Below, one piece after another: positions 10,158 through 27,700 of a stretch of DNA of 64,000 bases (the first letter of the stretch is position 1; each line of letters starts with the position of its first letter). Source of the DNA: a virus; IMG/VR virus record IMGVR_UViG_3300006310_000773; one strand, written 5' to 3'. The notes under the pieces are model-generated. The model was not told the origin of the DNA and searched no databases. It was given only the letters and a program-made list of their open reading frames with translations. The position numbers were made by a program, and so were the translations under genes.

Positions 10158-10458
10158 TTTTTTTATCTATAAAAGTGTCTCTATTTTTTAATTCACATGT
10201 CTGTTTACATTTTTTAACAGGCTCATCTGAACTCCATGAATTTATAATACCATTAAATAACGGGCCATCTAATATTTCTTGTATTGTTTGACTATACAAA
10301 CTATTATTATATTTTGCATTAAATTCACCAAACAATGTTTTTGGGGGATGTCCAGCCGCCATATTTAATGATTCAGCATTTACATAACAACACGGTATTA
10401 ATTCACCAACATGATTTATAAATATTCTTTTTTGATTTCCATATTTACATTCTATCAT
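10150..10458 (-). CDS. Stand-alone SPASM/twitch domain (C-terminal half of a split rSAM)
   Basis: IECK..IFINHVGELIPCC..ILDGPLF..SW..CKQTC matches the C-terminus of 12415..13476. Confidence 0.8.
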   Translation of the reverse strand: MIECKYGNQKRIFINHVGELIPCCYVNAESLNMAAGHPPKTLFGEFNAKYNNSLYSQTIQEILDGPLFNGIINSWSSDEPVKKCKQTCELKNRDTFIDKKNE

Positions 10459-11828: not shown

Positions 11829-12415
11829 TTCACTTCTCCACTACCTGTTCTATGTGAATATATTTTTCTAAATCTTTTAAATCCTTCAACTTTAGACATA
11901 TTCTCTGCCTCCTTTATTAAATGTTCATTATGATCAAATACAATAAATTGCCATGTTGCATTGCCGCCCGCACCTATAAATGCTCTATAATTTTCCTGCA
12001 CCTTTTTAAAATTAGATCCAATTCTATATTTTTCCAATGATTTTTGATCTGTTCCATCAAGACCAAAAAATACAGATAACTTTCTTCTACCCAGATCTTC
12101 CCAGAATTTAATAGTTCGAGTAGATCCATTAGTAGCAACATTAACATCTGAAAAATCTAAAAAATAATCTACTATGTCTATAAATTCCGGATGAGTAGTG
12201 GGTTCATCGACTGATCCACAAAAATTTATAATTTTCAAATTGGGTAAATATCCTTTCGGAATCCATTTTTTTAAATCTTCAAATTTAATATAAGACTTAT
12301 TAAGTAATGGTCCAACTTTATCATGCATTTCTTGACGAAGACATCCTGGACATTTAATATTACAAAAACTAGTAAGTTCTATATCAATCCATTCTATGGT
12401 ATTTTTATTCCACAT
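11825..12415 (-). CDS. Radical SAM core domain lacking SPASM (N-terminal half of a split rSAM)
   Basis: IELTSFCNIKCPGC; CGSVDEP; TNGS; FGLDG; WQFIVFDHNEH. Confidence 0.85.
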   Translation of the reverse strand: MWNKNTIEWIDIELTSFCNIKCPGCLRQEMHDKVGPLLNKSYIKFEDLKKWIPKGYLPNLKIINFCGSVDEPTTHPEFIDIVDYFLDFSDVNVATNGSTRTIKFWEDLGRRKLSVFFGLDGTDQKSLEKYRIGSNFKKVQENYRAFIGAGGNATWQFIVFDHNEHLIKEAENMSKVEGFKRFRKIYSHRTGSGEVK

Positions 12416-13476
12416 TATAAAAATTGTTCATTATATGCATCAAATCCTATTCCACATTTGTTAGCGCAAACTTTAAGTTTTCCATCTTTAACACTGGAAC
12501 ATGACCAAGAGTCTTCTATGGCTTTGAAAAACGGGCCGTTAACTATTTCTTTTATAGTATGTTTTCTGAGACTGATATTTTCATAATCTCCTATTAATTT
12601 CCAAATAGGTGCTTCGCGGGGTTTCCAATACCATTTATATTGTTGTCCCGCTGTCCAACAACAAGGAAACACATGCCCCTCTGCTGTAACAAATATTTCC
12701 TTCTTATTTATTGCTTTACAATTAATAGGTGTTGTATCATAATATGCATCCATGCTACCATGTTTAGCAACTAAATCTTTTTCTTTTTTTAATGCAACAT
12801 TAACAAACTCTAAACTAGGTTTTTCTAACTTCTGAGTATTTTCGCCTTTTCGATTTGTTGCTTGATGGGCGTCTTTACCTTTATGTTGAACAGTCGAAAA
12901 GAAACGTCCTGTTTTTTTAACTTGAAATTTTTCAAAGCCCATATCCATCGCCAATTGTCTTGCCTCATCTACCTGATGTTCATTATGTTTAAACACTATA
13001 AAATCCCATTTAGCATGACCACCTCGATCAATAAACGCTTTGGCATTCTCCATTACTCTTTCCCATTTAACTTTTTGCCTATATAAATGATTAGTATCCT
13101 CTAAACCATCTATACTAAATGTTACAACTACATCTATATCTGCTAAATCTTCCCAAAAATATTCTGGTTTAGCGCCTCCATTGGTATTCATACCTAACCA
13201 CATATTGGGATTAGCATTTCTAAAAGATCTAAATCCCTCGATTGCATAATTGCTTATGCATGGATCACCTAAATTACCACACATATACATAGAGTCCAAC
13301 TGTTCTACAAAATGCCAAGGAAACATTTCATAATAATCCATAGAACTTAACATTGCATTTGTGAGATAGGGATTATCTTTACCACCATTTATATTACGGT
13401 CACATTGGGGGCAAGCGGCATTACATCCCTGAGTAGGTTCAATATGAACACTTTTTATTTCATCATATCTATACAT
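12415..13476 (-). CDS. Radical SAM protein with C-terminal SPASM/twitch domain
   Basis: CNAACPQC; CGNLGDP; FSIDG; C-terminal CK..PCCW..CANKC. Confidence 0.9.
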   Translation of the reverse strand: MYRYDEIKSVHIEPTQGCNAACPQCDRNINGGKDNPYLTNAMLSSMDYYEMFPWHFVEQLDSMYMCGNLGDPCISNYAIEGFRSFRNANPNMWLGMNTNGGAKPEYFWEDLADIDVVVTFSIDGLEDTNHLYRQKVKWERVMENAKAFIDRGGHAKWDFIVFKHNEHQVDEARQLAMDMGFEKFQVKKTGRFFSTVQHKGKDAHQATNRKGENTQKLEKPSLEFVNVALKKEKDLVAKHGSMDAYYDTTPINCKAINKKEIFVTAEGHVFPCCWTAGQQYKWYWKPREAPIWKLIGDYENISLRKHTIKEIVNGPFFKAIEDSWSCSSVKDGKLKVCANKCGIGFDAYNEQFL

Positions 13477-14834
13477 AATTCTGGAAAAACTTTTTCAAAT
13501 TGTTTATGTGGTCTTAATCTATTTAAATGTGAAATATATTCTTGAAATTCGGGAAGTCTTTCAGACCAATCTTCATCATCCATGAAATTTAATAGTCCTT
13601 CATATCTTTTAATTCCATAGGATGAATTTGCCCAATCATCAAATTCTATATTTTCTACACCGGTACATAATTTCCAATTATCTTCCATCCAAGGGAAAAA
13701 CTCTTCTTCATATTTCTCTCTAATTTTATATTTTAATTCTTTTGGTATTATTTTAACATTTAATTGTGGTGGCCAATATGCCAAATGACAATTGATCATT
13801 CCTGCTCCCCCAGGCCATTTATTTATTTTCTTATATCCTTGCTGAACTTTCCAAGATATAAATTCTGGAAGATAATTAATACTCAATGCCATAATAGTTG
13901 TTGCGGTTGTTACTGTAATATTATCATCAGTCTGATCCATTAATTTTAAATTCTTTTCAATAATTTTCCATCTACTAGGATAGCGAATATAATCATTATA
14001 CTTTCCCCAACTATCTATTGAAAAATGAAATATTACATGTTTAAATTCACTCCACAACTTAAATAACTTATCTGGTAATTCAATACCATTTGAATTATAT
14101 CTTAATTCAATTTTAGGAGCATAGCCCATTTCAATTACTTTTTCAAGTAAGGTATAATGCTCGTCAATAATAGTTGATTCACCTCCTGCAAAATATAATT
14201 GATAAATGTTTGGTATTTGTTCATATAAATCTTCCCAAAAATGAGGACTCATTTTATGCCAATTATACGTTCCGCCGTCTTCATTTTTTTTCCATTGACT
14301 AGTATCTTTCAATCTTTCATTTTTTATTTTAGGATAAAAATCTAACCACTCTTTATTCCATCCAGAAGAATCATTTGGAGAACACATCACACAAGCCAAT
14401 TGACATTTACTTCCCATTCGTAAGTCAATATATCTAAGTTTGGGGGCAACTGATCCATCTTCATTTGTGTTTTTTACTAATTCATTTAAATCATAAATTT
14501 CTCCCCATTTATTAGTTTCCCAAACTCTTTTAGGAATATGGCCCGCATCTTCTTCTTTAAAACATTTTTCACATTGAGGAGGGCGTTCACCTTTCATCAT
14601 CATCAATCTAGTACGCCTCATATAATCATTATTCCACGCATCTAATAATCGAGTGGTATTTAAATTAGCACATTGGCCATCTTCATTTCTTATATTTGCT
14701 TTTGTTCTTATGGAAGAATTTGGATCTTGAACAGCAGACGCATTCGCAGTACAACATACTCTCATATGTCCGTTGGGTCTTGTTGATAAATGTATCCACG
14801 GCAATGCGCAAAAAGTGGGGGAAGGATAGTCCAT
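13455..14834 (-). CDS. Twitch-domain radical SAM protein
   Basis: FCALPWIH..VCC..CEKC; CQLACVMC; FAGGES; FSIDS. Confidence 0.9.
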   Translation of the reverse strand: MDYPSPTFCALPWIHLSTRPNGHMRVCCTANASAVQDPNSSIRTKANIRNEDGQCANLNTTRLLDAWNNDYMRRTRLMMMKGERPPQCEKCFKEEDAGHIPKRVWETNKWGEIYDLNELVKNTNEDGSVAPKLRYIDLRMGSKCQLACVMCSPNDSSGWNKEWLDFYPKIKNERLKDTSQWKKNEDGGTYNWHKMSPHFWEDLYEQIPNIYQLYFAGGESTIIDEHYTLLEKVIEMGYAPKIELRYNSNGIELPDKLFKLWSEFKHVIFHFSIDSWGKYNDYIRYPSRWKIIEKNLKLMDQTDDNITVTTATTIMALSINYLPEFISWKVQQGYKKINKWPGGAGMINCHLAYWPPQLNVKIIPKELKYKIREKYEEEFFPWMEDNWKLCTGVENIEFDDWANSSYGIKRYEGLLNFMDDEDWSERLPEFQEYISHLNRLRPHKQFEKVFPELCIDMMK

Positions 14835-14887: not shown

Positions 14888-15640
14888 ATGACTAATTTTT
14901 TTTGTTTGAAGTGGGGAAATAAATATCCTCCAAAATATGTGAATCGATTATTCAATTCTTTAAAAATACACTATAATAATTCTTTTAATTTTCATTGTTT
15001 AACAGAAAATTCTAAAGGATTAAATAAAGATATTGAAATAAAACCAATTCCTACAACATTCGATGAATTTCCAAGAACTCAAATTTTCACTTCAGAAAAA
15101 ATGTGTTATTTTGGAGATTATGCTAACATGTCAGGTAAAAAGGCATGGTTTGATTTAGATATATTGATTCAAAATAACATAACAAAATACATACACAAAA
15201 ATCATCCAAAACCAAAATTTATTTGGAATTATTGGAGAGATTCATTGGCCTCAAAATTAAATTATGGATATTTAACAACTCCTATAAATTCTTCATTTGT
15301 TGCTTGGGATAATGATGCTGGATATGAAATGTATGAAAATTTATTAAAAACAAAAAAGGAAGCATTCTTTTCATATCCATCTTTCGATAAACTCATATTT
15401 TATCAATGTCATCGCAAAAAAATGGTAGATTTCTGGCCTCCAACCACTGCCTATAATTACAATATAGGTGCAAAATTTCCAAATGATATGACTCCAAAAG
15501 AATATAAAAAACGTTATAAAATATGTCTATTCAATACTTCACATAAAGCATGGGCAAAAGAACATGAACAACATGTAGAATTGCATGATGCACAAGGATG
15601 GGCAAAAGAATTATGGGAAAGTTATAATGTCATCTTATGA
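14888..15640 (+). CDS. Phage GT-A fold glycosyltransferase
   Basis: CLKWGNKY..YVNRL, FHCLTE, WFDLD (DxD), INSS. Confidence 0.75.
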   Translation: MTNFFCLKWGNKYPPKYVNRLFNSLKIHYNNSFNFHCLTENSKGLNKDIEIKPIPTTFDEFPRTQIFTSEKMCYFGDYANMSGKKAWFDLDILIQNNITKYIHKNHPKPKFIWNYWRDSLASKLNYGYLTTPINSSFVAWDNDAGYEMYENLLKTKKEAFFSYPSFDKLIFYQCHRKKMVDFWPPTTAYNYNIGAKFPNDMTPKEYKKRYKICLFNTSHKAWAKEHEQHVELHDAQGWAKELWESYNVIL

Positions 15641-16160
15641 AACTTTATTAAAAACAAAACATAAAAAATTTAAATATTTAATTGAATATTCTAATAATAA
15701 AGATGTTCAAAAAATATCATGGCGAGTATTTGACGAAATCATGATACATTATGAAGAAGAGCCCGTACATTTTTTATGTAGTTGGTTCTGTCATATAGAA
15801 GTGGATGATTTTGAATTATTCGGTTATAAGTGCTATTATTATGATATAGATCCTATGGTATGCAAAATTAATAAATTAATAACAAAGAATGTTATTAATA
15901 AAGATGTCATATTTGATGATGTTAAAATAGAAGACGGTATAATTGTAAATAAATATTGTGAAACATGTTATCCTGTTGGTAGAAAGTTCTCAGGAAAGTT
16001 TGTTTTAGTTGGTTCTGATAATCCACATCTATCTTGTATTAATCCGATAAATAGTTGTCAACAAATTATAGATCAAAATCAATTAACAACAATTCATTAT
16101 AAAACTGAAATAAAAGGTAAACATAATTATTATTTGGTGGTAGGATGCAATCAACTATAG
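15627..16160 (+). CDS. Hypothetical protein, possibly a degenerate class I methyltransferase
   Basis: Likely start MSSYETLL overlapping the upstream stop. Motifs CSWF, YYDIDP, VNKYCE, CINPINS..IIDQNQ parallel the downstream MTase-like gene. Confidence 0.5.
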   Translation: MSSYETLLKTKHKKFKYLIEYSNNKDVQKISWRVFDEIMIHYEEEPVHFLCSWFCHIEVDDFELFGYKCYYYDIDPMVCKINKLITKNVINKDVIFDDVKIEDGIIVNKYCETCYPVGRKFSGKFVLVGSDNPHLSCINPINSCQQIIDQNQLTTIHYKTEIKGKHNYYLVVGCNQL

Positions 16161-17038
16161 AAAAATTAAAAAAATTTGAAGATAATATTGAAAAGAAAAA
16201 TCAAGAAATTAGAGATTCTGCAGGAAATATTAGAAAAACTATTGGAAAATTAAAAAATGATGTTAGAAAAACTATTGGAAAATATAAAACAAATATTGGA
16301 AAAAATAAAAAACATGTAAGTGATACCACAAAAAAAATTAATAAATTACCATATCATAAAATAGAACAATGGATAATAAACAATCAGGTTGGTAGTTTAG
16401 AAAGTTATCAAGATTCTTTATCACATGGACAATTATCTTCAAAACAATGGTTAGTTAACAAATTACCCAAAGGAAAAGATTTATATCTTGAAGTTATTTC
16501 AGACGGAACGCCAACTATTTTAGGATATACACAACATTTGCCTTTGGTCAATAGTGAAGGTAATACTGACCCATACCCTGAATCATCTTTATATATTGAA
16601 ATTATTGGTGGATGGTTTGGTTGTCCATTAATAGATCTGTTACATTCTAAATTAGAAATAAAAAAAATAGACTTTTATGAAAAAGATGAATTATGTAAAA
16701 AAATATTAGCACAATATCTAAATCATTTTGAATTTCCCTTTGAGGTTTCTATTTTCGGAGATTTTTTTGAAAGAAAAGAAATTAGACGTAGAGATTTAAT
16801 CATTAATACCTCAGGAGAACATATGGAAGATATTATAAAAATGAAACATTATTTTAAAGGAAATCCTGTAGTTGCTATACAATCAAATGATTATTTTGGA
16901 TTAGATGAACATATCAATTGTGTTCATAATGTTGAAGAATTAATTGAAAAAAATCAAATTAAAAATGTGGTATATAAAGGTGAATTAGATTTTCCAAAAT
17001 ATACAAGATATATGACCATAGGTCACTGGTATGTTTAA
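16145..17038 (+). CDS. Class I SAM-dependent methyltransferase-like protein with basic N-terminal repeats
   Basis: GQLSSKQWL, IIGGWFG, IINTSGEHM, QSNDYF..HINC, RYMTIG. Confidence 0.65.
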   Translation: MQSTIEKLKKFEDNIEKKNQEIRDSAGNIRKTIGKLKNDVRKTIGKYKTNIGKNKKHVSDTTKKINKLPYHKIEQWIINNQVGSLESYQDSLSHGQLSSKQWLVNKLPKGKDLYLEVISDGTPTILGYTQHLPLVNSEGNTDPYPESSLYIEIIGGWFGCPLIDLLHSKLEIKKIDFYEKDELCKKILAQYLNHFEFPFEVSIFGDFFERKEIRRRDLIINTSGEHMEDIIKMKHYFKGNPVVAIQSNDYFGLDEHINCVHNVEELIEKNQIKNVVYKGELDFPKYTRYMTIGHWYV

Positions 17039-17666
17039 ATATGCGGTTGCATGTATATGTGTTGGTGACAAATACAATGTAAAAGATGTAAAACGTTTAG
17101 AAAAAATGGTTTTTGAAAATACCACATATAATATAAACTTTCGAGTATTTGATGAACCTATTCTTCCCAAATGGTGGACTAAAGTTTTATATCATTCCCC
17201 AATGATAGAACCATTTGAAGAAGAAGTCGTTTTAGCTTTTGATTTAGACGTGATCATAAAAGGAAACATAGATCCCCTATTTGATTGGGTAGAACAACAA
17301 GATTATTTGTGTGCATGTTGGTGTAGGTGGAGAGAACATATGGAAGATTTTGAAAAACGCCGGTCACAAAAAGAATGTTGCACCCCCTATAACTCTTCTA
17401 TATTAGGATGGAAACCAAACAGCAGTTTAAAAGTGTGGGAGAAATTTGAATTTGAAGATATTGAAAAATGTGGTGGATTTGATACATATCTTTGGATGAA
17501 ATATCTTGATCCCATTCGTATACCAGACCATTTTTATTATTCTGCTAGTTATTCTAATTATCAAGAATTAGATTATCCAATAGCCATTTTTAATAAAGGA
17601 TATTCTGATGGACTAGAAAAGGAAGAAATATATTCTACTGTTCCTTGGACTAAAAAATATATCTAA
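17031..17666 (+). CDS. GT-A fold glycosyltransferase, paralog of 14888..15640
   Basis: CVGDKY, WWTK, AFDLDVII, YNSSILGW. Confidence 0.72.
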   Translation: MFKYAVACICVGDKYNVKDVKRLEKMVFENTTYNINFRVFDEPILPKWWTKVLYHSPMIEPFEEEVVLAFDLDVIIKGNIDPLFDWVEQQDYLCACWCRWREHMEDFEKRRSQKECCTPYNSSILGWKPNSSLKVWEKFEFEDIEKCGGFDTYLWMKYLDPIRIPDHFYYSASYSNYQELDYPIAIFNKGYSDGLEKEEIYSTVPWTKKYI

Positions 17667-18334
17667 TACCAAACACCATTAGGACTTTCATGAACTAATC
17701 CTATATCCTCTTTTAAAACTTCATTACAAAATTCCACATCATCATGAAAATCATTATTCATCATAAATCCTATTGAAAATCTATTACAGTCCGTTCCTGC
17801 ACAATGCCAAGCATATTCTTTTTTTTCTTCAACATGATCTAAATGACTAGTAATTTTCATAGATTTAATATTCCATCCTGCAGAATCTTGATATTCTTCA
17901 ATTTTTTTTGAATCACCATAAACTTTAAAAATACCATCACCTGTTTCTGACCAAGAAAATATTATATTTTTGCCTGGGATATTCGCATTATGATGCCAAG
18001 CAATATATCCACCAGGAGGATAATGTTGACATAAAGGACTTCTTCTTGCTCCCACTAAAGAAGCTAATTTAGTTGACAATTTTAAAAGTTCTTCATGAGG
18101 TTCAGAAGCTTCCAGACCAAAATCATTTGATAATATATGTGTAGGCCCGCCAGAGCCTGAATCACCTTCCATTATATTAAACAAATATTCATCAGAAATA
18201 GCCTCTTCTTTTGAAATTATTTCTCTTTTATTTCTATCTTCAATATTTCCATCACTTTTAATAAAATCGAATACAAAAGGTTCAAATAATTTTAAAATTT
18301 TTAAAATATCTTGTGGTATATCTTTTTCAATCAT
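17663..18334 (-). CDS. 2OG-Fe(II) oxygenase-like (cupin) protein
   Basis: YPPGGYIAWHHN, WHCAGTDCNRFSIGF. Confidence 0.65.
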   Translation of the reverse strand: MIEKDIPQDILKILKLFEPFVFDFIKSDGNIEDRNKREIISKEEAISDEYLFNIMEGDSGSGGPTHILSNDFGLEASEPHEELLKLSTKLASLVGARRSPLCQHYPPGGYIAWHHNANIPGKNIIFSWSETGDGIFKVYGDSKKIEEYQDSAGWNIKSMKITSHLDHVEEKKEYAWHCAGTDCNRFSIGFMMNNDFHDDVEFCNEVLKEDIGLVHESPNGVWY

Positions 18335-19058
18335 GCCAACCTGTTCCTTTGGGATAACTTAAAAATACAATATCTGAATAATTAACATTTTCTATTTCAC
18401 AATCATATCCTGGTGCTGTAAAATTCCATAAACAATCGTCATTTTTTGTTGTATTAAAATACCAATTCCATTTTATATCATTTCTGTACCATTCATCTTC
18501 TTTATCACATAACATTAAATGTAATGGAAATTGATCCCACATTTCAACAGGACCTTTCTCATATTTAAAATCCCATCTTGAATGCCAATTATGCTTCATC
18601 TTCCATTGCCAATTATTCCACCATTCCTCCATAAATGTTTTCATTTTTTTATTATTTTTCCAAACAAAAGCACCACCATGAGGTCTTTCTTCTTCATGAA
18701 TGTTCCACCAACATGCTGATGCACAATAAGGTCTAATTTTCGTAAAAACTATATCATTATCACAAAGTGCTTCAAATACATTATTTGCATTGTCTGATAA
18801 ACAAACTACATCAGCATCTAAAAAACATGTAATATCATAGGGGGTTTTTGTTAATGCCCACAATTTAGCCCTGATTGTTTTAGGAGCACCACCAATAACA
18901 TTGTCAAATATATGATTTCCTGGATCTAAGATCCATTCATTGTCAGTAACTAATGTGATTGGATATTGTGTATATTCTTTTATGCTGTCGGCGAGGAGTT
19001 GTGCCGCAGTAAGAAATCTTTTATTTTTGGAAGCGACAACAAGAAATCCATTATTCAT
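18327..19058 (-). CDS. Glycosyltransferase (GT8-like nucleotide-diphospho-sugar transferase)
   Basis: Likely start MNNGFLVVAS overlapping the upstream stop; AKLWALTKTPYDITCFLDAD; WDQF. Confidence 0.75.
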   Translation of the reverse strand: MNNGFLVVASKNKRFLTAAQLLADSIKEYTQYPITLVTDNEWILDPGNHIFDNVIGGAPKTIRAKLWALTKTPYDITCFLDADVVCLSDNANNVFEALCDNDIVFTKIRPYCASACWWNIHEEERPHGGAFVWKNNKKMKTFMEEWWNNWQWKMKHNWHSRWDFKYEKGPVEMWDQFPLHLMLCDKEDEWYRNDIKWNWYFNTTKNDDCLWNFTAPGYDCEIENVNYSDIVFLSYPKGTGWHD

Positions 19059-19518
19059 TTTCTTCAATTGCTGGTTTGAGAACATTTCCCCATTCAGTAA
19101 GACCATGAATTGGATCACTGATTGATTTTAGTAATAATACAGTAACCCATGCATTTAATTCTACAAGATTTGTTGATTTTCTTATTTTGGAACGAAGAAT
19201 TTTATCTTTAGACTCTTTCACTTCTGATATTTCAAATGCTTTTAATTTTGTATCAAATAATGTTTTTAAATCATCTTGAGCTTTATCTGATTCTTCTTCT
19301 TTTTTTTGATTTATTATTTTTCTTTGAGAATGGGCATGTGAGAAATCATCTATTTCTTTAGGAGTAAATTTTTTGAAAAATTCTTCCCAATGTTCTGTTC
19401 CTACAGAGGTTTGTATCGAATATGTATCATCATCATTTGCGTTTTTTAATAAAATTGCAATAGAGGTTTTTTCAGAATTAGTCCAAATTCCTTCAACCAC
19501 TTCATCACTAAATATCAT
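19051..19518 (-). CDS. Hypothetical protein (possible fibre-associated chaperone)
   Basis: 155-aa ORF directly downstream of the YxGQ protein, with helical C-terminus LFDTKLKAFEISEVKES..KIRKS. Confidence 0.55.
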   Translation of the reverse strand: MIFSDEVVEGIWTNSEKTSIAILLKNANDDDTYSIQTSVGTEHWEEFFKKFTPKEIDDFSHAHSQRKIINQKKEEESDKAQDDLKTLFDTKLKAFEISEVKESKDKILRSKIRKSTNLVELNAWVTVLLLKSISDPIHGLTEWGNVLKPAIEENE

Positions 19519-19534
19519 AATTTATCCTATTATA

Positions 19535-20629
19535 TTATCCAATTCTCTTATAAAGATTATAAGCGTTTATAACGTTAGAGCTTCCATCATTTTGAATTGT
19601 AGCTCCTGTCCAATACCCAGTATATTGTCCAGTATATTGCCCGCTATATTGTGTACCATATTGTCCAGTATACCACGGCCCGTATCGAGCTCCACCAAAA
19701 TTTCCATATTGTACTCTATATTGTCCTGACCACTGACCAGTATATTGTCCGGTATATTGTCCGCTATATTGTGTAGAATATTGTTGATTTGCTACAGAAC
19801 ACATATAGTCAGTGAATCCCCCAACTTGTGTCCAAGTTCCAGATCCAGATGCTGATCCCGTTTTTATTTCATAATCTCCCACATTATTTCCACCACTGCC
19901 TCCAGTAATACGATTTATCCAATGTGCGACTAATGTTTCTATTTCCGCATCTGTCATTTCTTGAACATCTCCACCAGTTCCCTTATATTTTACTGGTTGA
20001 AAGCTTCCCACACTACCTGTAGAAGTTTTTCTCCAAAGATAAATATTTGTGCTATGTGAATCTTGTGCGGTGGTTTGTGCATAGTCTATATGTTCTCCAC
20101 CAGAAGGGGGGTTAGTTCCTGTTGTAACATTTATCCACGTTCCTCCTAATGAACCTGAGGGCTCGCTTGCTCCCAAATAATATGTACCAACTCCTGTATT
20201 ACTTCCCGTTAAAACATATACTTCTTGACAACATCTCATAATATCATCTACCAATTTAGCGGCATTCATTTCTTGTAAAACGCCCGATCCTTCCCAAGCT
20301 AAAGGCCACACCTCTCCTCCTGTGGCTTCTGCAGAATTATCATTCGCTGCAAGACCATATTCACTGATTGTAGAAGATCCACTACCAGTAGGATGATACC
20401 CCACAGCATCATCTCTTTTAGTATCAATGAAGTATCCTAAATTTCCAGTTGTAGTTGTTGCTCTTAATTGAATGTTTCCGCGTTGTGCATCAGATTGGTC
20501 ACTTGCCCATTTTGCTAAAATAACAGGAACAATTTTATCCTTTATATCAGCATCTGTCATTTCTCTTAAACTGCTGTTACCTGGGTCTAAATCTGATACC
20601 CACAACGGTCTGTTATCACCTGCCGCCAT
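19535..20629 (-). CDS. Putative virion/fibre protein with a C-terminal (Y/W)xGQ repeat hairpin
   Basis: G/S/T-rich; three internal repeats (LREMTDADI, LQEMNAAKL, VQEMTDAEI); QYSTQYSGQYTGQYTGQWSGQY..WYTGQYGTQYSGQYTGQYTGYWTG. Confidence 0.7.
   Translation of the reverse strand: MAAGDNRPLWVSDLDPGNSSLREMTDADIKDKIVPVILAKWASDQSDAQRGNIQLRATTTTGNLGYFIDTKRDDAVGYHPTGSGSSTISEYGLAANDNSAEATGGEVWPLAWEGSGVLQEMNAAKLVDDIMRCCQEVYVLTGSNTGVGTYYLGASEPSGSLGGTWINVTTGTNPPSGGEHIDYAQTTAQDSHSTNIYLWRKTSTGSVGSFQPVKYKGTGGDVQEMTDAEIETLVAHWINRITGGSGGNNVGDYEIKTGSASGSGTWTQVGGFTDYMCSVANQQYSTQYSGQYTGQYTGQWSGQYRVQYGNFGGARYGPWYTGQYGTQYSGQYTGQYTGYWTGATIQNDGSSNVINAYNLYKRIG
19604..19786 (-). repeat. Degenerate 12-bp coding tandem repeats (tattgtccagta-like) in two arms
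   Basis: Visible in the DNA; encodes the 4-residue Y-x-G-Q periodicity. Confidence 0.85.
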
Positions 20630-20642
20630 ATTTTATCCTTTA

Positions 20643-21629
20643 TTATGGTCCTAATCTTGTTCCTGAGGTATTGAATACACCAAAAGTAACCCATTGTGCT
20701 AATCCATTTCCGTCAGAATCTTGTAACAATTTATACTGTGCGGGAGATCCGCCTGAAATTGTAACAGTATTAGATAAAGTTACAGTATTTCCATGTCCCA
20801 TTGTTATAGCTACATCTCTACCCAATCCACCAAGAAGACCACTATCAATAATGACTTCTTGTGCTGCATTCATTGTAATAGTATCTTCTGCTTCAGAATT
20901 TTGAATAATATTTCCGGATAATTTAAGCTTATCAGCAGTTACTTGTACGGTTCCGTCTACAGCATTATCAATGGTTTCTCCGTTGCCAAATGTAATAGTA
21001 TTTCCACCAAATGATACATTATCTGTTATCTCCCATTTGGATCCTGAATCATTCCACAATATACTATGATCAGTCGCTCCATCATTTACTTGAATTCCAG
21101 CACCAGTAGCAGTTGCTGTAGTTTTTATCGCCGCATTTGATAATTCAATAGTTTTGTCTGTAGTTACAAGAGTTGTTGATTCTACTTTAGTTTGTGTACC
21201 CTGAACAGTTAAATTTCCTGTAATAACTGTATGGGCCGCCGCTAATTGTAAATGAGAAGTTGTGGCTGTGATTTGAGATGTATTAACAAATATTCTCTCA
21301 TTCCCTGCACCAGCATCTCCTGCATAAATTTTTATTTCATCTTCATCATTACCCCATCCTTCATGGACTGTAATTTTTGTATCTTGATCTTTATCTATTA
21401 AATCATTTAATGCTATCCACTCCGCATCATGATATCCTTCATATTTTCCTAAAGTTGAATTATATCTAACTTGACCAGTGTTCGGACCATACACTCCCGC
21501 GGGTCTTTGAGCAGTGGTTCCAACAGGAACGGTCATATAACCAGTAGTGTTAAAAATCGTGTTTCCTGTAATTACCTGATCACCATCGATATCAACTGTT
21601 TGTGATAATTCATAAGCTCGTGATGTCAT
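20643..21629 (-). CDS. Tail fibre-like structural protein
   Basis: VPVGTTAQRP..GQVRYNST..YEGY..IDKDQDTKITV; GNLTVQGTQTKVEST..DKTIEL. Confidence 0.75.
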   Translation of the reverse strand: MTSRAYELSQTVDIDGDQVITGNTIFNTTGYMTVPVGTTAQRPAGVYGPNTGQVRYNSTLGKYEGYHDAEWIALNDLIDKDQDTKITVHEGWGNDEDEIKIYAGDAGAGNERIFVNTSQITATTSHLQLAAAHTVITGNLTVQGTQTKVESTTLVTTDKTIELSNAAIKTTATATGAGIQVNDGATDHSILWNDSGSKWEITDNVSFGGNTITFGNGETIDNAVDGTVQVTADKLKLSGNIIQNSEAEDTITMNAAQEVIIDSGLLGGLGRDVAITMGHGNTVTLSNTVTISGGSPAQYKLLQDSDGNGLAQWVTFGVFNTSGTRLGP

Positions 21630-21634: not shown

Positions 21635-22150
21635 TTATTCCTTCGTTTTATTTTTAGTAATCCAATTGTCGATGGATGTCCAATCGACCCAATCTTCTAA
21701 TTGATTTAATGCTTTAAAGGTCATATTTTGTAATCCTCCAAAATTAGGAGAAAATAGATCATTGTCTATCATATCACCCGCATCCATTTTTGTAATATCT
21801 AATTCTACAATACTATCATTTAATATATTTATGTCATTTAATGATTCTTCGTGCTTACTCTGATCAACTGCCCAAGTATTTGTAGCTGGGTCATGTGTTC
21901 CATATTTATTTAATATTTCTGCTCTATTATTTAAATAAATTTGATGATGTTGTTTAATTGCTCTTGCGCATATAAACAATTTCCAAAAAATTGCAGTTTT
22001 GTCCCAATCTCGTTGTAAATATGCACTTGTCTGAAAATATTTTGTCCATAATTCATTTATAAAAATGACATATTCTTCATCAGTAAAATATGCATATCTA
22101 ATTTTCACATTTTTATCATTATTTACAACTTTTTCTTTTTTATTCTTCAA
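21635..22150 (-). CDS. Hypothetical protein, possible tail-fibre assembly chaperone
   Basis: Lies between two fibre genes with an 11-nt overlap; RAEILNKYG motif. Confidence 0.5.
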   Translation of the reverse strand: MKNKKEKVVNNDKNVKIRYAYFTDEEYVIFINELWTKYFQTSAYLQRDWDKTAIFWKLFICARAIKQHHQIYLNNRAEILNKYGTHDPATNTWAVDQSKHEESLNDINILNDSIVELDITKMDAGDMIDNDLFSPNFGGLQNMTFKALNQLEDWVDWTSIDNWITKNKTKE

Positions 22151-24584
22151 TTTCTTCCATTAATATTTTATATTTTTTACCTGTCAAATTATTTGTTAAT
22201 GACAAGTAATCACTTTCCTCGACGACTTTCCAATCGCCACGTTCATTTTTCAAATTTAAGTCAGAAGTATATATGTTAGCCCATCTTAAAGAATCACTTC
22301 CCATATCTCTCGTTCCATTAGCATCAGGTAAAACATCTGAAGCGAAAAAACCTCCAGACATATCAATATTCGAGTTAAATGTCGCTAATCCTGTAAAAGA
22401 AGATGTAGTTCCCACCAAAAGATTATCTTCAATTTCTATTGCTCCACAATGGAAATTTTCATAATCCGCTATTGTTATATTTCCTGCTGCTGATCCATCA
22501 TCTCCTACACGACATGTTGAAAATTCATCCAAACTTTCATCCCAAATAAATGCCGTATTTCCAAGATCATTAGTTCCTCTAATGAATACAAATCCGGTAT
22601 CATAAGCATTATTTGTTGGTACTGCTGAAAAATTATTAAGAACTATAAACGGATCTGTTATAGTCATAGTATCAGAACTAACTTCAGTAGTTGTTCCTGT
22701 AATATGTAAATTACCAATAAGAGTTGTGTCTTGACCTGACGGGGTTATTGTTAATTCACCAGCCGCATTCGTCGCAAAAGTAGTATTTGCCGCAAAACTA
22801 TGTAATAATTTTAATTGAATTGCATCAGTTCCATTACCCTTAACATCTAATGTAACTGCTGGTTCTTTAACGCCAATACCAACTCTATCATTATGTACAT
22901 CAACAGCAAATGTCGCGTTAGCATGTGATACAGGATCAACACCAATATAAGTATTAGCTTGAACAGAAGACCATCCGGCGGTGTTTGCCCATCTATCTTT
23001 AGTATAAACATCAGTATTTTCAAAAGAAGTCCACGCCCAAGATTCAACTATATTACCTACTGTTTGAGCTGGAATAGTAACAGAAGTTGCATTAGTTGCT
23101 GTCAATAAACTTTGATCAATTTTCACTCCTTCACTAAATACTTCAATCATTCCAGGAGTATATCCACCATTAATCGTAAACGTTGTCTGACTAGCGGTTG
23201 CTACAAATCTCTCTTTTGTCATTGCCGCTTTGGATAAATCTGTTGCAGCCATTGACATAACATCTATTATATCATCTACTCCAACGGTAAAGTTAAGAAA
23301 AGTTATAGCACTTCCTAATACATCAGTGTCATAATCAGCAGAATCCAGTTTAATACCGTTCACGAATACTTGTAACCAATTTGGATTATATTGTGCACTT
23401 ACTGAGGTAGTTGAATCTGTCGGTGCCTCAATTCTTGTATTATATACTGTTGTGGATGGAGAGAGTTGATACCACGCCGCTGCTGTATTTGAGTAATACT
23501 CCATTTGTCCTTTACCGGCATCATACTCTTTATTAAATCTAAGCATACCATCTTCAAGATCAGTCGATGGTCTTTGTGCTGAAGATCCTGATGGAACAGT
23601 AATAGAAGTCTCACCATCTCTTCCTAAAATATTATGACAAAATACGTTGTTAGCCCATACTGATTGTACTCTCTGGTCTGTTTTTCCTATATGAAGTTCA
23701 GTTCCGCTACCGGACCAACTACTTGGTAAAAAATATCCATCATCAGTATCACTTCCAATATACCATCTCTCTGTTCCTTCAGTATAAAATTTAATTTCGT
23801 CTTCATCTCCGCCATGAGTAGTTTCAACAGTTATTTTTGTGTCTTGGTCTGAATCAATAGCTCCACCTAATGACATAAAAGTATTAGAAACATGATCATA
23901 ACCCTCATATCTGTCTAATGTTGTATTATATCTAATTACTCCGCGTAAAGAATGATCTGCATTTGTGGTACTAGATAAATCTGTAATTTCTGGTCTATCT
24001 GAAGTTTCGCCAGAAGGTATTTTTAAATGTGAAGTTGTGTTTGCTCCAACCGTGTCCCATACATAAAGGTTTTTCCATCTTTCCCCATTATTACCTAAAC
24101 TAATTGCAGTATTTGTTAAACCAATTGGAGGTAATGGTGTAATATCTGCGGCAATGTCTCCCACTATTGTTACAGTATCTACGTCTGCATCATCACCTAA
24201 TTGAATATTTCCTTCTGCTTTAACTACTCCTGCTACGTAAACTGATCCGCCGACATTTAAACTTTTTTGAACTGAAATACCACCTTTAAATATAGCGGAG
24301 CCTGTGGACAAACTTGCTCCAAAATCATCACTTGTACCATCTGTCACATCTCGTAAACTATTGGAGGTTATTCCACCTTCTCCTGTTGTATTGAATTCTA
24401 TTGATCCATTTGCTATTAAATCACCAATTCTTATTCCACCATTTCCATCATCATCTCTTCTTACTACTGTATTTGCGATACCTGCGTCTGTTCCAGCATT
24501 AACGTCGGCAATGACCAAGTTGGTCTGATTACGCCACGTTTCAAAGGTATCAGTTAAAGCTACGTTTGCGAATGAAGTTGCCAT
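22140..24584 (-). CDS. Tail fibre protein
   Basis: TDTFETWRNQTN N-terminus; PSGxxxxRP repeats; VFVNGIKL and ATASQTTF modules; C-terminal RWANIYTSDLNLKNERGDW. Confidence 0.8.
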   Translation of the reverse strand: MATSFANVALTDTFETWRNQTNLVIADVNAGTDAGIANTVVRRDDDGNGGIRIGDLIANGSIEFNTTGEGGITSNSLRDVTDGTSDDFGASLSTGSAIFKGGISVQKSLNVGGSVYVAGVVKAEGNIQLGDDADVDTVTIVGDIAADITPLPPIGLTNTAISLGNNGERWKNLYVWDTVGANTTSHLKIPSGETSDRPEITDLSSTTNADHSLRGVIRYNTTLDRYEGYDHVSNTFMSLGGAIDSDQDTKITVETTHGGDEDEIKFYTEGTERWYIGSDTDDGYFLPSSWSGSGTELHIGKTDQRVQSVWANNVFCHNILGRDGETSITVPSGSSAQRPSTDLEDGMLRFNKEYDAGKGQMEYYSNTAAAWYQLSPSTTVYNTRIEAPTDSTTSVSAQYNPNWLQVFVNGIKLDSADYDTDVLGSAITFLNFTVGVDDIIDVMSMAATDLSKAAMTKERFVATASQTTFTINGGYTPGMIEVFSEGVKIDQSLLTATNATSVTIPAQTVGNIVESWAWTSFENTDVYTKDRWANTAGWSSVQANTYIGVDPVSHANATFAVDVHNDRVGIGVKEPAVTLDVKGNGTDAIQLKLLHSFAANTTFATNAAGELTITPSGQDTTLIGNLHITGTTTEVSSDTMTITDPFIVLNNFSAVPTNNAYDTGFVFIRGTNDLGNTAFIWDESLDEFSTCRVGDDGSAAGNITIADYENFHCGAIEIEDNLLVGTTSSFTGLATFNSNIDMSGGFFASDVLPDANGTRDMGSDSLRWANIYTSDLNLKNERGDWKVVEESDYLSLTNNLTGKKYKILMEEIEE

Positions 24585-24594: not shown

Positions 24595-24798
24595 CTAATA
24601 GTTAATAAATTTTTTAATTTCTAATATTTCCGCTTTTATTTCAGAAATTTCCGTCTTTAGTGTATTTATCTCCGCTTGTCTACTGTCAGCTTGCCTTTTC
24701 ACTAATCTATGGGCAGTTAATGCATCTATATCATTTCTTAATATTGCATTGCTTTCAGTATCTTTCAGAAATCCTGGAGCGTCTGTTAAAATTTTCAT
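24595..24798 (-). CDS. Small coiled-coil protein of T4-like phage structural regions
   Basis: FLKDTESNAIL..EINTLKTEISEIK; ATGA overlap. Confidence 0.65.
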   Translation of the reverse strand: MKILTDAPGFLKDTESNAILRNDIDALTAHRLVKRQADSRQAEINTLKTEISEIKAEILEIKKFINY

Positions 24799-27700
24799 GA
24801 ATCTAATGCTACAGCTCTTAAATCCTTAATTTTTGGTGGATCTATATTACTTGAAGATGTTAAAACAACTTTTATTGCAAAATATTTAAAATCTTTAAAA
24901 GTTGTAGATCCAACAGTATATGCAGCAGAATCATCTGCTGTTTTATAATTATATGTCAAGAAATCTGACTCATTTGCAGAATATACACTTGAATCGGTTT
25001 CTTGTGTCATTTTATTCCAATATTTATCATCAAATGATTCAGAATCAGTTGAACTAAGTGCTTTATAATAAATATTAATATTTGAGGTACTAGGTTTATA
25101 TGCTCTTATATATACTCTAACATCTTCAGCGTCAAACCCGTCTTGTAATGTCACTCTTCTTGTTATATATCTCGCTATTCCATTTCCACCTTCTCTATCC
25201 GTTTCTGCTGAAATTGTTACAGATCCACTTGTACCACCAGACAAAGTAGCAGTAATATTATCAAAATATCCACTTCCCTCCGCTGAAGCATATGCATCTG
25301 TAATTGCTCCTGTACCATCTGTGACTAATGTAACTCCCGCTCCCGTTCCTGTTGTTCCAGAAAGTGTGATATTACTAGTACCGTTTGCATATCCTGTTCC
25401 TCCCCCAACTACAGCCACATTATTATTACTAATTCCACCATTGTTAATATTATTTTCAACAGTTATTAAATTTAATCTAGATAAATCTATAATTGGTGAA
25501 ACATCTGAATTTGTTGTGGACATTTTCACTTGTATTTTCATATCTGGATCAGTACCACCATCATATTTACCTGTTCTAATAGTTTTTCTACTATCATGCT
25601 TAATATTTTTATTTGATGTAAATTTAGTAAAAGAATTATCTCTAACAGCAATATGAGGATATGCTTCATTTTCAGTAGTTGTTTGATAAAAATAATCTAT
25701 TACTGAATCTGAAAATTTCAATTCTGATGTACTTAATTTCATCAAATCATATGCCGTATTAGCTGTTCCATTTGAAAGAGGATGTGGAATTACATCAAAT
25801 TGACATAAATTAGAATTAAAAGATGTTAATTGAAAAGAACATTTTTGTGTTTTAAACATCAAGCTTCTATTAGTAACCGGAGTCCATTTACTAGAATTAT
25901 TTGTAACAAAAAAGTCTCCAACTTCAGGACCCTTTCCTGCTTTTGTATTTGTAGTATCAGTGTTAGTTACCATATTTCCTTCAACAGCGCTATAAACTTT
26001 ATATTTTGGACTATTTGTCATTAAAACAATAGCGAATTCGCCAGGTGGTAAATATACTGGTGATGGAAATTTAAATGTCGTTCCACTTGATGATTTTGTT
26101 GTATCAGGAGAAGAAGAGTCAACAGTTATTTCATCAGGAACAAGAACTTTTTCACCAAATGGTAGGACTTGAGCAACGCTTGGTGTTCCGTCTGTCATTG
26201 GTCTTACTTGTACTGTTACAGGCAAATAAGTATCCTTTTGTGAAAAATAGAATGTAACATTTCTTAAAAACATCCCATTTGGATATCTAGACTCATCTAT
26301 CACTATAGACTGTGCCATCGGATTCACAAAATTCGAAGAAGAACTTTTATCAGAAACAGCTGATTTTGTCACAACAGCGGATCTAATATCTTGTCTTCTC
26401 ACTAAAGAAGATCTTGTAGAAATTATACTTCCATCTGATACAGACTCCATACCCTTTATATGAAATGTTTTTTCAGCTACAGAATTAGTTTTAGATAATG
26501 TATTGTCAGCATGATCAGTAAGTCTTACTAATCTTTCTCCCATTCTAAATTGTCCAGCTGTAAATTCAAAATTTCCAACTACAGTACCATTTATATCAGA
26601 TTTAAGATTATTAACATATGTTGTTGGTACGGCTGATAAAGTCGCATTTGCTGTTACTGTTCCACTCGCAGAAACATAATCTGCTTCCACAATTGTTGAT
26701 GTACCTGTCGCAGTCCAATCACCAATTGTATTCGCAAGCATTAATGTAGTATTTCCCGTATAATCTACATGAACCAATGTTCCAGAAATTGAACTATTCG
26801 CACTTACTGTTACATATTCTCCCTCATTCGCTATAAATTCTGAGTTTCCTCCGTCAGTAATGGATAATGTCACTCCAGTATTAGCCTGCTCTGTTAAATT
26901 TACACCATCTACATATAAGTAATGATCAGTACTTGGTTTTAATCCTTGTGCTTTAAATAAAACAGTTTGTTTTCTATTCCATGAAACAATAGTATCATTA
27001 ACTTGTTTATTGTTTACTGTTTTCTTAACTGATTCTGGTTGATCTTTTGATAAAATCCCATCTCTTGTATTTTGTTGATCTATAGTCTTGGCTGATCTAT
27101 CTACTTTAGTAGAAGATGTTGATTTTTTATTCGCTTTTGAAACATCATCATTATTAATCTCTACACCACTCCAATTTTTTGACCAATTGTCCCATTGTGT
27201 ACCAAATCCATAATTATATTTACCAGATTCCCAATTATCACTACCTCCAGTTAAATTTATTAATACCTCTGGGCGCCTTCCATCATAAAACCAGGTATCA
27301 CTAGGATTTGTCATAGTTAAAATTCCATTAAACATACCAGAACCAAATGGATTTACTTCTTCAGTCGTTGTTGTAGCGGGTTGATCAATAAATCCCGTGT
27401 CTGTATAAGCAACAGAAACCAAATCTCCTGTTTTCATTATATTCGCACTATTAACATCAAGTTTAAATTTAAAATTATCAGATTCAAATGTCGGTCTTAA
27501 AAGTGTTTGATCAAAATCTATCGCTATTCTATAATCATCATCTAAAACATCACCTATTGCATGTCCCGCAAATTGGTCTACAAGTATACCATTCTTAAAT
27601 CTTTCCACTCCACCATCTGTAAATATCGCTTGTTCCTTTGCATCTTTTTCCAAAAATGAGAGAGAAGTAAAATATTCAAGTTGTTCAACTCTTTTTTCTA

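What the first reader, a model, noticed from the sequence alone, without database searches (positions are those of the whole stretch)
19604..19786. Symmetric (Y/W)xGQ repeat hairpin as the probable modification substrate
Seen: QYSTQYSGQYTGQYTGQWSGQYRVQY-GNFGGARYGPW-YTGQYGTQYSGQYTGQYTGYWTG, with an aromatic residue every fourth position in two arms around a Gly/Pro turn. The DNA shows synonymous divergence between repeats, so selection appears to act on the peptide. Inference: a long beta-hairpin needle displaying a ladder of Tyr/Trp and Ser/Thr. It resembles a multi-core RiPP precursor embedded in a structural protein, suited to aromatic cross-linking or O-glycosylation, and the tip may be the receptor-binding loop.
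Basis: partly seen in the sequence, partly recalled or inferred. Interest (0 to 1): 0.8.

Follow-up and report, generated by a model that had tools for sequence, protein, structure and literature searches.

The report
Tyrosine-glycine hairpin stalk of phage fibre
A baseplate-module protein of an uncultured marine T4-like phage ends in a thin two-stranded tyrosine/glycine hairpin whose length relatives change in both strands at once; it is inherited with a sugar-transferase-like and a hydroxylase-like gene, not with the neighbouring radical SAM enzymes.

Summary
The peptide is real. It lies at 19604-19786 on the minus strand and forms residues 282-342 of a 364-aa ORF (19535-20629) in a T4-like baseplate module. 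An aromatic residue falls every fourth position, and no shuffle out of 100,000 reaches the observed periodicity.

The hairpin reading is strongly supported by comparison with relatives. Among 20 distinct architectures the two arms run from 12 to 178 residues and stay matched (r = 0.99). The same G-rich turn motif sits at the exact midpoint. Occasional six-residue units are mirror-symmetric, not translationally repeated. Relatives range from turn-only forms to 40 units per arm.

The RiPP/radical SAM reading is not supported. A complete phage genome with a 3,347-aa family member has one unrelated rSAM gene 42 kb away. Most relatives have no rSAM within 6-10 kb. rSAM homologues also sit beside family members that have no hairpin.

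Three downstream genes are co-inherited instead: a 155-aa protein, a DxD GT-A-like protein, and a prolyl-hydroxylase-fold protein with an H-x-N...H...R pattern. All 46 distinct hairpin- or turn-bearing genes with enough flank have the last two. None of the 3 hairpin-less lineages has either. Modification by these two proteins is plausible but unproven.

The scan has met this hairpin family before in other genomes (e1-5403565, e1-5660687, e1-5643733). I found no publication on it.

The parts
19535..20629 (-). 364-aa hairpin-stalk protein (P0001): three tandem N-terminal domains, the Tyr/Gly hairpin and a C-terminal tail
   Evidence: ORF and translation. 24 homologues in the word-indexed search, and 101 representative clusters for the N-terminal body. 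AF2 gives pTM 0.74, with the body at pLDDT about 80-94. No Pfam or PHROG family.
19784..20629 (-). Body, aa 1-282: three tandem domains of about 90 aa, each carrying an (E/Q)MTDAEI-like helix
   Evidence: Alignment A1 and AF2. Weak resemblance to MABP beta-prism domains: VIA Z 5.2-5.8, rmsd 3.8-4.0, 120-123 residues aligned.
19706..19783 (-). N-arm of the hairpin, aa 283-308: seven register aromatics 4 residues apart (6 spacings)
19670..19708 (-). Turn region, aa 308-320 (Y-G-N-F-G-G-A-R-Y-G-P-W-Y). It is homologous to the family turn motif [YF][YF][SGD]G..G..[YF].
   Evidence: The geometric midpoint of the repeat region coincides with this motif in 40 or more distinct relatives. It is conserved in P0002-P0004.
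19604..19684 (-). C-arm of the hairpin, aa 316-342: six spacings of 4 residues
19538..19603 (-). Conserved C-terminal tail, aa 343-364 (A-T-I ... L-Y-K-R-I-G), which returns to the body
   Evidence: Conserved in nearly all relatives, including hairpin-less ones. AF2 pLDDT is 89-92, with strands 340-345 and 353-362.
19051..19518 (-). 155-aa protein of unknown family that follows the stalk gene in nearly all relatives
   Evidence: Found in 51 of 57 loci. Also present beside hairpin-less L059 and L222. No consistent Pfam family.
18327..19118 (-). 263-aa GT-A-like (nucleotide-sugar transferase-like) protein with an invariant D-x-D
   Evidence: A2 has invariant D101 and D103. 11 of 18 members give weak Glycos_transf_2 hits below the cut-off. 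Atlas feature hits of 0.96-0.97 go to Nucleotid_trans / Glyco_transf_8 clusters. The fold was not modelled.
17663..18334 (-). 223-aa protein with a prolyl-hydroxylase-like double-stranded beta-helix fold and invariant H114, N116, H177, R185
   Evidence: A5. AF2 pLDDT 80.5. Foldseek gives AlkB/P4H at E 1.6e-4, probability 1.0. VIA gives Z 11.1 to PHD2, 10.8 to P. putida P4H and 9.3 to the PBCV-1 collagen prolyl hydroxylase.

Best explanation
The repeat is the shaft of a two-stranded antiparallel beta-hairpin, a stalk or needle that projects from a compact three-domain body of a baseplate-peripheral virion protein of an uncultured marine T4-like phage.

How it is built:
- The chain leaves the third body domain and runs out for about 27 residues as (Q)Y-(S/T)-G units.
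- It reverses at a conserved Gly-rich turn and runs back in register.
- It ends in a conserved tail that rejoins the body.
- In an extended strand, Tyr and Gly fall on one face, giving a Tyr ladder with Gly providing room. Ser/Thr and the variable residue fall on the other face.
- In this phage the stalk would be roughly 8-9 nm long, and up to about 60 nm in relatives with 40 units per arm (inferred from about 3.3 A per residue).

Length evolves only by matched changes in both arms.

The stalk is not the substrate of the adjacent radical SAM cluster, which is a lineage-specific accessory island.

The stalk is inherited as a four-gene unit with a 155-aa protein, a GT-A-like protein and a prolyl-hydroxylase-fold protein. 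These most likely modify the hairpin (hydroxylation and/or glycosylation) or assist its folding.

Shown here: the periodicity, the arm co-variation, the mirror symmetry, the synteny and co-loss, and the lack of linkage to rSAM.

Inferred: the beta-hairpin conformation itself, the virion location, the oligomeric state, any modification, and a host-surface contact role.
For: Location:
- The gene lies downstream of gp25-, gp6-, gp7-like-, gp8- and DUF4815-type baseplate genes. This order is conserved in relatives.

Hairpin:
- 20 distinct spacing architectures were found in proteins of 650 aa or less.
- Their arms span 12-178 residues, with Pearson r = 0.993.
- The two arms differ by no more than 2 units in 19 of the 20.
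- The product of the per-architecture chance probabilities of so central a gap is about 4e-24, not corrected for shared ancestry.
- Six-residue units are mirror-symmetric: L171 matches 40/40 in mirror against 26/40 in translation, L155 23/24 against 15/23, and L164 18/19 against 12/18.
- P0003, the nearest other lineage, lost one unit in each arm.
- There is a graded series from turn-only forms (P0055, P0064, P0080, P0089) to 40 units per arm.
- The midpoint always carries the same turn motif.
- Unit composition is Y 81% / F 18% at position 1, S+T 68% at position 2 and G 79% at position 3, with position 4 variable.
- AF2 draws strands 288-302 and 320-334, though at pLDDT 36-47, and places the C-tail confidently.

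Not linked to rSAM:
- Only 13 of 50 contigs hold any rSAM gene.
- The complete genome OQ984149.1 has a 3,347-aa member and a single 331-aa rSAM gene 42 kb away.
- G052 (99% complete) and G053 each have 9 rSAM matches, but about 40 kb from the stalk gene.
- 30 of 42 GT-seeded loci have no rSAM within about 6 kb.
- Hairpin-less L059 and L222 have rSAM homologues about 2.5 kb away.

Four-gene module:
- 49-51 of 57 stalk-seeded loci carry the three downstream genes.
- In the GT-seeded scan, every locus with enough flanking sequence has the stalk gene upstream and the DSBH-like gene downstream.
- Tally: 46 of 46 distinct genes with a hairpin or turn have both genes, against 0 of 3 hairpin-less lineages (L059, L216, L222).
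Against: - No confident 3D model of the hairpin exists. AF2 pLDDT is 36-47 across it.
- There is no solved or predicted structural relative of the whole protein.
- Family members longer than about 650 aa (up to 3,347 aa) show no single mirror centre. They must be built differently, for example from several hairpins or inserted domains.
- Virion location is inferred from gene order alone.
- The architectures compared are related by descent, so the chance figures overstate independence.
- The hydroxylase-like protein has Asn where the 2OG-oxygenase family has the metal-binding Asp/Glu, so it may not be an enzyme.
- The GT-A assignment rests on sub-threshold matches.
Confidence: 0.72

Rival explanations
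1. One reading: the repeat is a multi-core, RiPP-like substrate embedded in a structural protein. The neighbouring radical SAM/SPASM enzymes would cross-link or otherwise modify its aromatic residues.
For: In this lineage a cluster with nine rSAM domain matches lies about 5 kb downstream. rSAM-like ORFs recur within about 6 kb in 12 of 42 GT-seeded loci. From general knowledge, rSAM/SPASM enzymes often act on Tyr/Trp-containing peptides.
Against: - The stalk occurs without the cluster: a complete genome has one unrelated rSAM 42 kb away, and most contigs have none.
- Multi-rSAM clusters in related phages sit about 40 kb from the stalk gene.
- Homologues of the window's rSAM genes flank hairpin-less family members.
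- The rSAM-rich lineages have among the shortest hairpins.
- No PqqD-type recognition domain was detected in the rSAM proteins at E <= 0.01.
- Four of the enzymes belong to the N-terminal-twitch rSAM subfamily NF033640, and none reached the cut-off of a peptide-maturase model.
Confidence: 0.05
2. The hairpin is a structural stalk, and the co-inherited GT-A-like and DSBH-fold proteins are non-catalytic assembly factors (fibre chaperones) rather than modifying enzymes.
For: - The DSBH-fold protein has H-x-N instead of the canonical H-x-D/E.
- An Atlas cluster of similar shape (TM 0.68) carries the Phage_tail_APC chaperone domain. That domain lies just upstream of the giant stalk gene in OQ984149.1.
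- T4 fibres need dedicated chaperones that are absent from virions (PMC9603124).
Against: The invariant D-x-D in the GT-like protein and the invariant His, His and Arg at the positions expected for metal and 2OG binding look like preserved active sites.
Confidence: 0.2
3. The repeat is a disordered low-complexity linker, or the product of simple tandem duplication, with no defined fold.
For: AF2 confidence is low in the region. The composition is simple.
Against: Arms stay equal over a 15-fold length range. Irregular units are mirror-symmetric rather than translationally repeated. Indels come in matched pairs, and the turn motif is conserved at the midpoint. Drift or slippage predicts none of these.
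Confidence: 0.03

Closest known systems
Needle (D10-D11) of the T4 long tail fibre protein gp37
   Same: Each chain runs from a knob out to a tip and turns back, so both chain ends sit at the base. It is a thin beta-structured rod on a T4-type phage (PMC9603124, read).
   Different: - No sequence or fold match was found.
- gp37 is an interwoven trimer, whereas the oligomeric state here is unknown.
- Here the shaft is a strict four-residue Tyr/Gly repeat of tunable length with a conserved tight turn.
- The gene lies in the baseplate wedge block, not in a long-fibre block.
MABP beta-prism domains, some with a protruding beta-hairpin (MVB12B MABP 3TOW; MACPF/perforin-2 accessory domains 2QP2, 8B6V, 6SB1)
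   Same: The best structural neighbours of the whole model: a body of three similar sub-domains.
   Different: Z is only 3.8-5.8, which the tool itself rates as possibly just a common arrangement. There is no sequence similarity, and the proteins are not viral.
Phage- and virus-encoded modification of repetitive virion proteins: mycobacteriophage virion glycosylation (Freeman et al. 2023, PMC10527164, cited in the paper read) and the PBCV-1 collagen prolyl hydroxylase (PDB 5C5T)
   Same: Virus-encoded GT-like and prolyl-hydroxylase-fold genes sit beside a repetitive structural gene. 5C5T is a Z 9.3 structural neighbour of the 223-aa protein.
   Different: No modification has been shown here. 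The repeat has no regular Pro or Lys. The oxygenase-like protein has a non-canonical H-x-N motif.
Multi-core RiPP precursors matured by rSAM/SPASM enzymes
   Same: Short aromatic-containing motifs repeated many times, with rSAM/SPASM genes nearby in this one lineage.
   Different: The repeat is part of a large structural protein with no leader peptide, and it shows no co-inheritance with rSAM genes.

Membership tests
Tyr/Gly hairpin-stalk protein family of marine T4-like phages (unnamed; no Pfam or PHROG entry) | Three tandem N-terminal domains with an (E/Q)MTDAEI-like helix | tested here: met
   A1. phmmer with residues 1-280 finds 101 representative clusters.
Tyr/Gly hairpin-stalk protein family of marine T4-like phages (unnamed; no Pfam or PHROG entry) | Two equal arms of aromatic-x-Gly-x units around the conserved turn, followed by the conserved C-terminal tail | tested here: met
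   P0001 has the spacing 444444-8-444444. Turn and tail align with those of relatives.
Tyr/Gly hairpin-stalk protein family of marine T4-like phages (unnamed; no Pfam or PHROG entry) | Followed by the 155-aa, GT-A-like and DSBH-fold genes | tested here: met
   Window genes 19051-19518, 18327-19118 and 17663-18334.
RiPP precursor matured by rSAM/SPASM enzymes | Precursor and maturase are co-inherited across genomes | tested here: not met
RiPP precursor matured by rSAM/SPASM enzymes | Leader peptide, and a recognition (RRE/PqqD-like) domain in or beside the maturase | tested here: inconclusive
   No PqqD-type Pfam hit in the rSAM proteins at E <= 0.01. Such domains are easily missed by hmmscan. 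The repeat sits at the C-terminal end of a 364-aa folded protein.
RiPP precursor matured by rSAM/SPASM enzymes | Modified residues demonstrated | not testable with these tools
   Needs mass spectrometry.
T4 gp37-type needle | Sequence or fold similarity to gp37 residues 811-1026 | tested here: inconclusive
   No hit by PDB profile search, Foldseek or VIA wide. However, the hairpin part of the model has low confidence.
GT-A fold glycosyltransferase (263-aa neighbour) | D-x-D metal/nucleotide-sugar motif | tested here: met
   D101 and D103 are invariant in 18 sequences.
GT-A fold glycosyltransferase (263-aa neighbour) | Family-level profile match or GT-A fold | tested here: inconclusive
   Glycos_transf_2 matches are below the cut-off in 11 of 18 members. 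Atlas feature hits of 0.96-0.97 go to Nucleotid_trans/GT8 clusters. No structure was modelled.
Fe(II)/2-oxoglutarate oxygenase, prolyl-hydroxylase-like (223-aa neighbour) | Double-stranded beta-helix fold | tested here: met
   VIA gives Z 11.1 (PHD2, rmsd 3.5, 146 aligned) and Z 10.8 (P4H, rmsd 3.7, 153 aligned). Foldseek probability is 1.0.
Fe(II)/2-oxoglutarate oxygenase, prolyl-hydroxylase-like (223-aa neighbour) | H-x-D/E...H metal triad | tested here: not met
   The invariant residues are H114, N116 and H177, so Asn occupies the carboxylate position. The residue correspondence is judged from strand positions in the model, not from a residue-level superposition.
Fe(II)/2-oxoglutarate oxygenase, prolyl-hydroxylase-like (223-aa neighbour) | Basic residue for the 2OG C5 carboxylate on the strand after the distal His | tested here: met
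   R185 is invariant, 8 residues after H177, at the start of strand 185-192.

The most novel reading that the evidence does not exclude
The GT-A-like and prolyl-hydroxylase-fold proteins are a dedicated maturation pair that hydroxylates and/or glycosylates the hairpin (its Ser/Thr/Tyr ladder or its turn). The stalk would then be a glycan-decorated adhesin. This would be an undescribed fibre design with its own modification system, widespread in marine T4-like phages (447 GT-like relatives in IMG/VR).
Probability: 0.3. Interest if true: 0.75.

Novelty: new variant of a known kind. Interest (0 to 1): 0.6.

Why it matters
Phage fibres and baseplate appendages decide which cells a phage can reach. 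Known shafts are trimeric beta-helices, beta-spirals, coiled coils or collagen-like helices.

A self-pairing Tyr/Gly hairpin that lengthens only by matched insertions in both arms, much as an RNA stem does, is a different and very simple building principle. It appears in hundreds of uncultured marine T4-like phage contigs.

Its strict co-inheritance with a GT-like and a hydroxylase-like gene, and their joint loss when the hairpin is lost, gives a directly testable hypothesis of fibre maturation.

The study also removes an attractive but wrong link between the stalk and the phage's unusual radical SAM arsenal, whose substrate remains unknown.

Tried and rejected
- Homotrimer prediction of residues 205-364 (complex prediction) gave no answer: score 0.24 against a mark of 0.42. 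It is not used as evidence either way.
- Foldseek of the whole model against the PDB gave nothing at E <= 0.001. A PDB profile search with A1 gave none.
- PDB profile searches with A2, A3 and A4 gave only chance-level hits.
- Pfam and PHROG gave no family for P0001. Pfam on all members of A3 and A4 showed no consistent family. NCBIfam gave nothing useful for the accessory genes.
- INPHARED: megablast of 10 kb and tblastn of P0001 gave no match. Only phage C48C1 was reached, and only through other family members.
- The search for related loci with the whole alignment A1 failed because there was no conserved stretch. The genome search could not reach the ENA contigs.
- Mirror-centre search in members longer than 650 aa gave no unique centre, because periodic sequence produces many equal maxima. 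Their architecture is unresolved.
- Literature searches for 'tetrapeptide repeat' plus 'tail fiber', for 'C48C1' and for 'DUF4815' found nothing relevant.
- A beta-solenoid and a parallel-trimer shaft were considered and rejected, because neither requires equal, mirror-symmetric arms.
- A polyglycine-II sandwich as in S16 gp38 was considered and rejected, because the period is 4 with one Gly per unit.

Full report
**What is there**

The window is AT-rich (32% G+C) and carries a T4-like baseplate block on the minus strand. The block holds gp25-like (37834-38286), gp6-like (35994-37832), a wedge protein (32590-35982), gp8-like (30810-32558) and a 2,003-aa DUF4815 protein (24795-30806). Two virion-structural PHROG matches follow (22140-24584, 20643-21629), and then the 364-aa ORF 19535-20629. 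The nearest held record is a 75-kb viral contig that CheckV rates 30% complete, so the phage is probably a jumbo phage.

The finding's coordinates, read on the minus strand, give exactly the quoted peptide, residues 282-342 of that ORF. Aromatic residues recur every fourth position, and 0 of 100,000 shuffles reach the observed periodicity. Gly and Ser/Thr codons differ between units, while Tyr and Gln codons are nearly fixed, as they are elsewhere in the gene. TRF finds only imperfect 12-nt arrays.

**The family**

The protein has no Pfam or PHROG family and no relative of known structure. It does have many uncultured relatives:
- 24 in the word-indexed search.
- 58 loci in IMG/VR.
- 101 representative clusters for the N-terminal 280 residues.
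- One deposited genome, phage C48C1 (OQ984149.1, Kyanoviridae by its record), where the homologue is 3,347 aa long.

All share three features:
- Three tandem domains of about 90 aa. AF2 models them at pLDDT 80-94, with pTM 0.74. The weak nearest folds are MABP beta-prisms, Z 5.2-5.8.
- A run of aromatic-x-Gly-x units.
- A conserved C-terminal tail that AF2 places confidently (pLDDT about 90) in strands next to the body.

Over 1,211 units the composition is Y 81% / F 18% at position 1, S+T 68% at position 2 and G 79% at position 3. Position 4 is variable.

**Is it a hairpin?**

AF2 draws two long strands (288-302 and 320-334), but at pLDDT 36-47, so the model alone proves little. The comparative anatomy is much stronger.

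I defined the repeat region only by its outer boundaries: the end of the third domain and the start of the tail. I then chained the register aromatics. This gave 20 distinct spacing architectures among proteins of 650 aa or less.

- In 19 of the 20, a single central gap (8, 10 or 18 residues; 5 in L029) splits the array into arms that differ by at most two units.
- Arm lengths run from 12 to 178 residues and correlate with r = 0.993.
- The product of the chance probabilities for so central a gap is about 4e-24. This figure is not corrected for common descent.
- Many relatives intersperse six-residue units, and their positions are mirror images about the centre rather than translated copies. 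L171 matches 40/40 in mirror against 26/40 in translation, L155 23/24 against 15/23, L164 18/19 against 12/18, and L040 13/13 against 9/13.
- Within the window's own subfamily, P0003 (64% identical) has lost one unit in each arm.
- The series is continuous. It starts with forms that keep only the turn (P0055, P0064, P0080, P0089), passes through 3+3 and 5+5 (P0044, P0037), reaches 6+6 in this window, and ends at 40+40 (L171).
- The geometric midpoint always carries the same motif: an aromatic pair, then S/G/D-G, then a second Gly and an aromatic. Pairs such as S-G, D-G, G-G and N-G are classical tight beta-turn sequences (general knowledge).

Equal arms, mirror symmetry, paired indels and a conserved turn are what an antiparallel self-pairing rod requires. 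A solenoid, a parallel trimer or a disordered linker predicts none of them.

With a two-residue strand alternation, Tyr and Gly share one face and Ser/Thr the other (inference). At about 3.3 A per residue the stalk here is roughly 8-9 nm long (inference).

Members above about 650 aa show no single mirror centre. Some carry globular inserts or an extra hairpin-like insert in domain 1. Their build is unresolved.

**Is it the substrate of the radical SAM enzymes?**

The window does hold a striking cluster from about 1457 to 14834:
- rSAM or SPASM domains in six ORFs, including a 1,412-aa protein with two modules.
- Four ORFs that fit the N-terminal-twitch subfamily NF033640.
- An Asp/Asn hydroxylase-like gene.

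The near-identical record has nine rSAM matches. Even so, linkage to the stalk fails on several counts.

- Only 13 of 50 related contigs hold any rSAM gene.
- Among stalk-seeded loci with 7-10 kb of flank, most have none.
- 30 of 42 GT-seeded loci have none within about 6 kb.
- The complete C48C1 genome, with by far the longest repeat, has a single 331-aa rSAM gene 42 kb away.
- Two large related contigs (170 kb, 99% complete; 125 kb) each have nine rSAM matches, but about 40 kb from their stalk genes.
- Homologues of the window's rSAM proteins lie about 2.5 kb from family members that have no hairpin at all, L059 and L222.
- The rSAM-adjacent lineages have among the shortest hairpins.

Multi-rSAM arsenals in marine T4-like environmental genomes have been noted before, with 12 such genes in one 183-kb genome (PMC5332604). 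The region downstream of the stalk module looks like a general accessory-gene hot spot.

**What does travel with the hairpin**

The three genes immediately downstream are present in 49-51 of 57 stalk-seeded loci. The loci that lack them either have too little flank or lack the hairpin.

I then seeded independently from the middle gene. IMG/VR holds 447 relatives, and in the 80 best loci every one with enough room has the stalk gene upstream and the third gene downstream.

- The 263-aa protein has an invariant D-x-D. It gives sub-threshold Glycos_transf_2 matches in 11 of 18 members. Its Atlas feature hits of 0.96-0.97 go to nucleotide-diphospho-sugar transferase / GT8 clusters. It is probably a GT-A-type glycosyltransferase, but the fold was not modelled.
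- The 223-aa protein folds confidently (pLDDT 80.5) into a double-stranded beta-helix. The closest structures are prolyl hydroxylases: PHD2 at Z 11.1, P. putida P4H at Z 10.8 and the PBCV-1 collagen prolyl hydroxylase at Z 9.3 (Foldseek).
- The invariant residues of the 223-aa protein are H114, N116, H177 and R185. Asn therefore sits where the family has its metal-binding carboxylate. It may be a non-canonical oxygenase or a non-catalytic relative.
- An Atlas cluster of similar shape carries a tail-assembly-chaperone domain. That domain sits just upstream of the giant stalk gene in C48C1.
- The 155-aa protein has no recognisable family.

Among distinct complete family members with at least 3 kb downstream:
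- 44 of 44 with a repeat hairpin have both the GT-like and the DSBH-like genes.
- 2 of 2 turn-only forms have both.
- The hairpin-less L059, L216 and L222 have neither.
- L059 and L222 still keep the 155-aa gene, so that protein goes with the body and the enzyme-like pair goes with the hairpin.

This is good comparative evidence for a functional tie. It does not say whether the tie is modification or assembly.

**Comparison with known systems**

- The nearest functional analogue is the gp37 needle of the T4 long tail fibre, whose chains also run to a tip and back (PMC9603124). It shares no detectable sequence or fold with this protein, and it is an interwoven trimer.
- Virus-encoded glycosylation or hydroxylation of repetitive virion proteins is known in mycobacteriophages and chloroviruses. 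The references were reached through, and the structure through.
- I found no paper describing this repeat.
- The scan itself has met the same family in other genomes, and follow-up agents reached similar conclusions. I treated those notes as leads and reproduced the arm co-variation and the three-gene linkage independently here.

**Verdict**

- The hairpin inference is well supported.
- The rSAM/RiPP interpretation is not supported.
- Modification by the co-inherited GT-like and hydroxylase-fold pair is plausible but untested.

Noticed in passing
window 1457-14834 (-): A dense radical SAM island. Six ORFs carry rSAM and/or SPASM domains, including a 1,412-aa protein with two modules and an 820-aa fusion. 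Four fit the N-terminal-twitch subfamily NF033640. There is also an Asp/Asn beta-hydroxylase-like gene at 9504-10157. Similar 9-gene arsenals occur in related contigs G052 and G053 at other genome positions. The substrate is unknown.
   Followed up: partly
window 11825-12415 and 10150-10458 (-): A 196-aa ORF with only the rSAM core and a 102-aa ORF with only a SPASM domain flank an unassigned 457-aa ORF (10455-11828). This looks like a split rSAM/SPASM gene.
   Followed up: no
window 14888-17666 (+): Four plus-strand ORFs of 250, 191, 297 and 211 aa have no family hit. Relatives of three of them recur downstream of the stalk module in 13-24 other loci, including beside hairpin-less L059.
   Followed up: partly
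L074 21012-31055 (OQ984149.1 141011-151054): A 3,347-aa family member in the complete phage C48C1 genome. It has about 2,600 residues of period-4 repeat with a 12-residue super-period (Y..R..Y), and two globular inserts near the C-terminus.
   Followed up: partly
P0095, P0102, P0114: Some family members carry an additional Tyr/Phe hairpin-like insert inside the first body domain, while their C-terminal hairpin is minimal. This suggests that equivalent loops of the three domains can each sprout a stalk.
   Followed up: no
L218 6001-6837 and 6864-7631: Two tandem paralogues of the stalk protein sit side by side in one contig.
   Followed up: no
window 17663-18334 (-) and Atlas clusters: The DSBH-fold protein has shape-level neighbours in two Atlas clusters. 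One carries the Phage_tail_APC chaperone domain (TM 0.68). The other is a bacterial cluster named as Nif11-leader natural-product precursors (TM 0.66).
   Followed up: partly
window 19373-19729 (+): A 118-aa TTG-started ORF lies on the opposite strand over the repeat. It is most likely a shadow frame of the conserved minus-strand gene.
   Followed up: no
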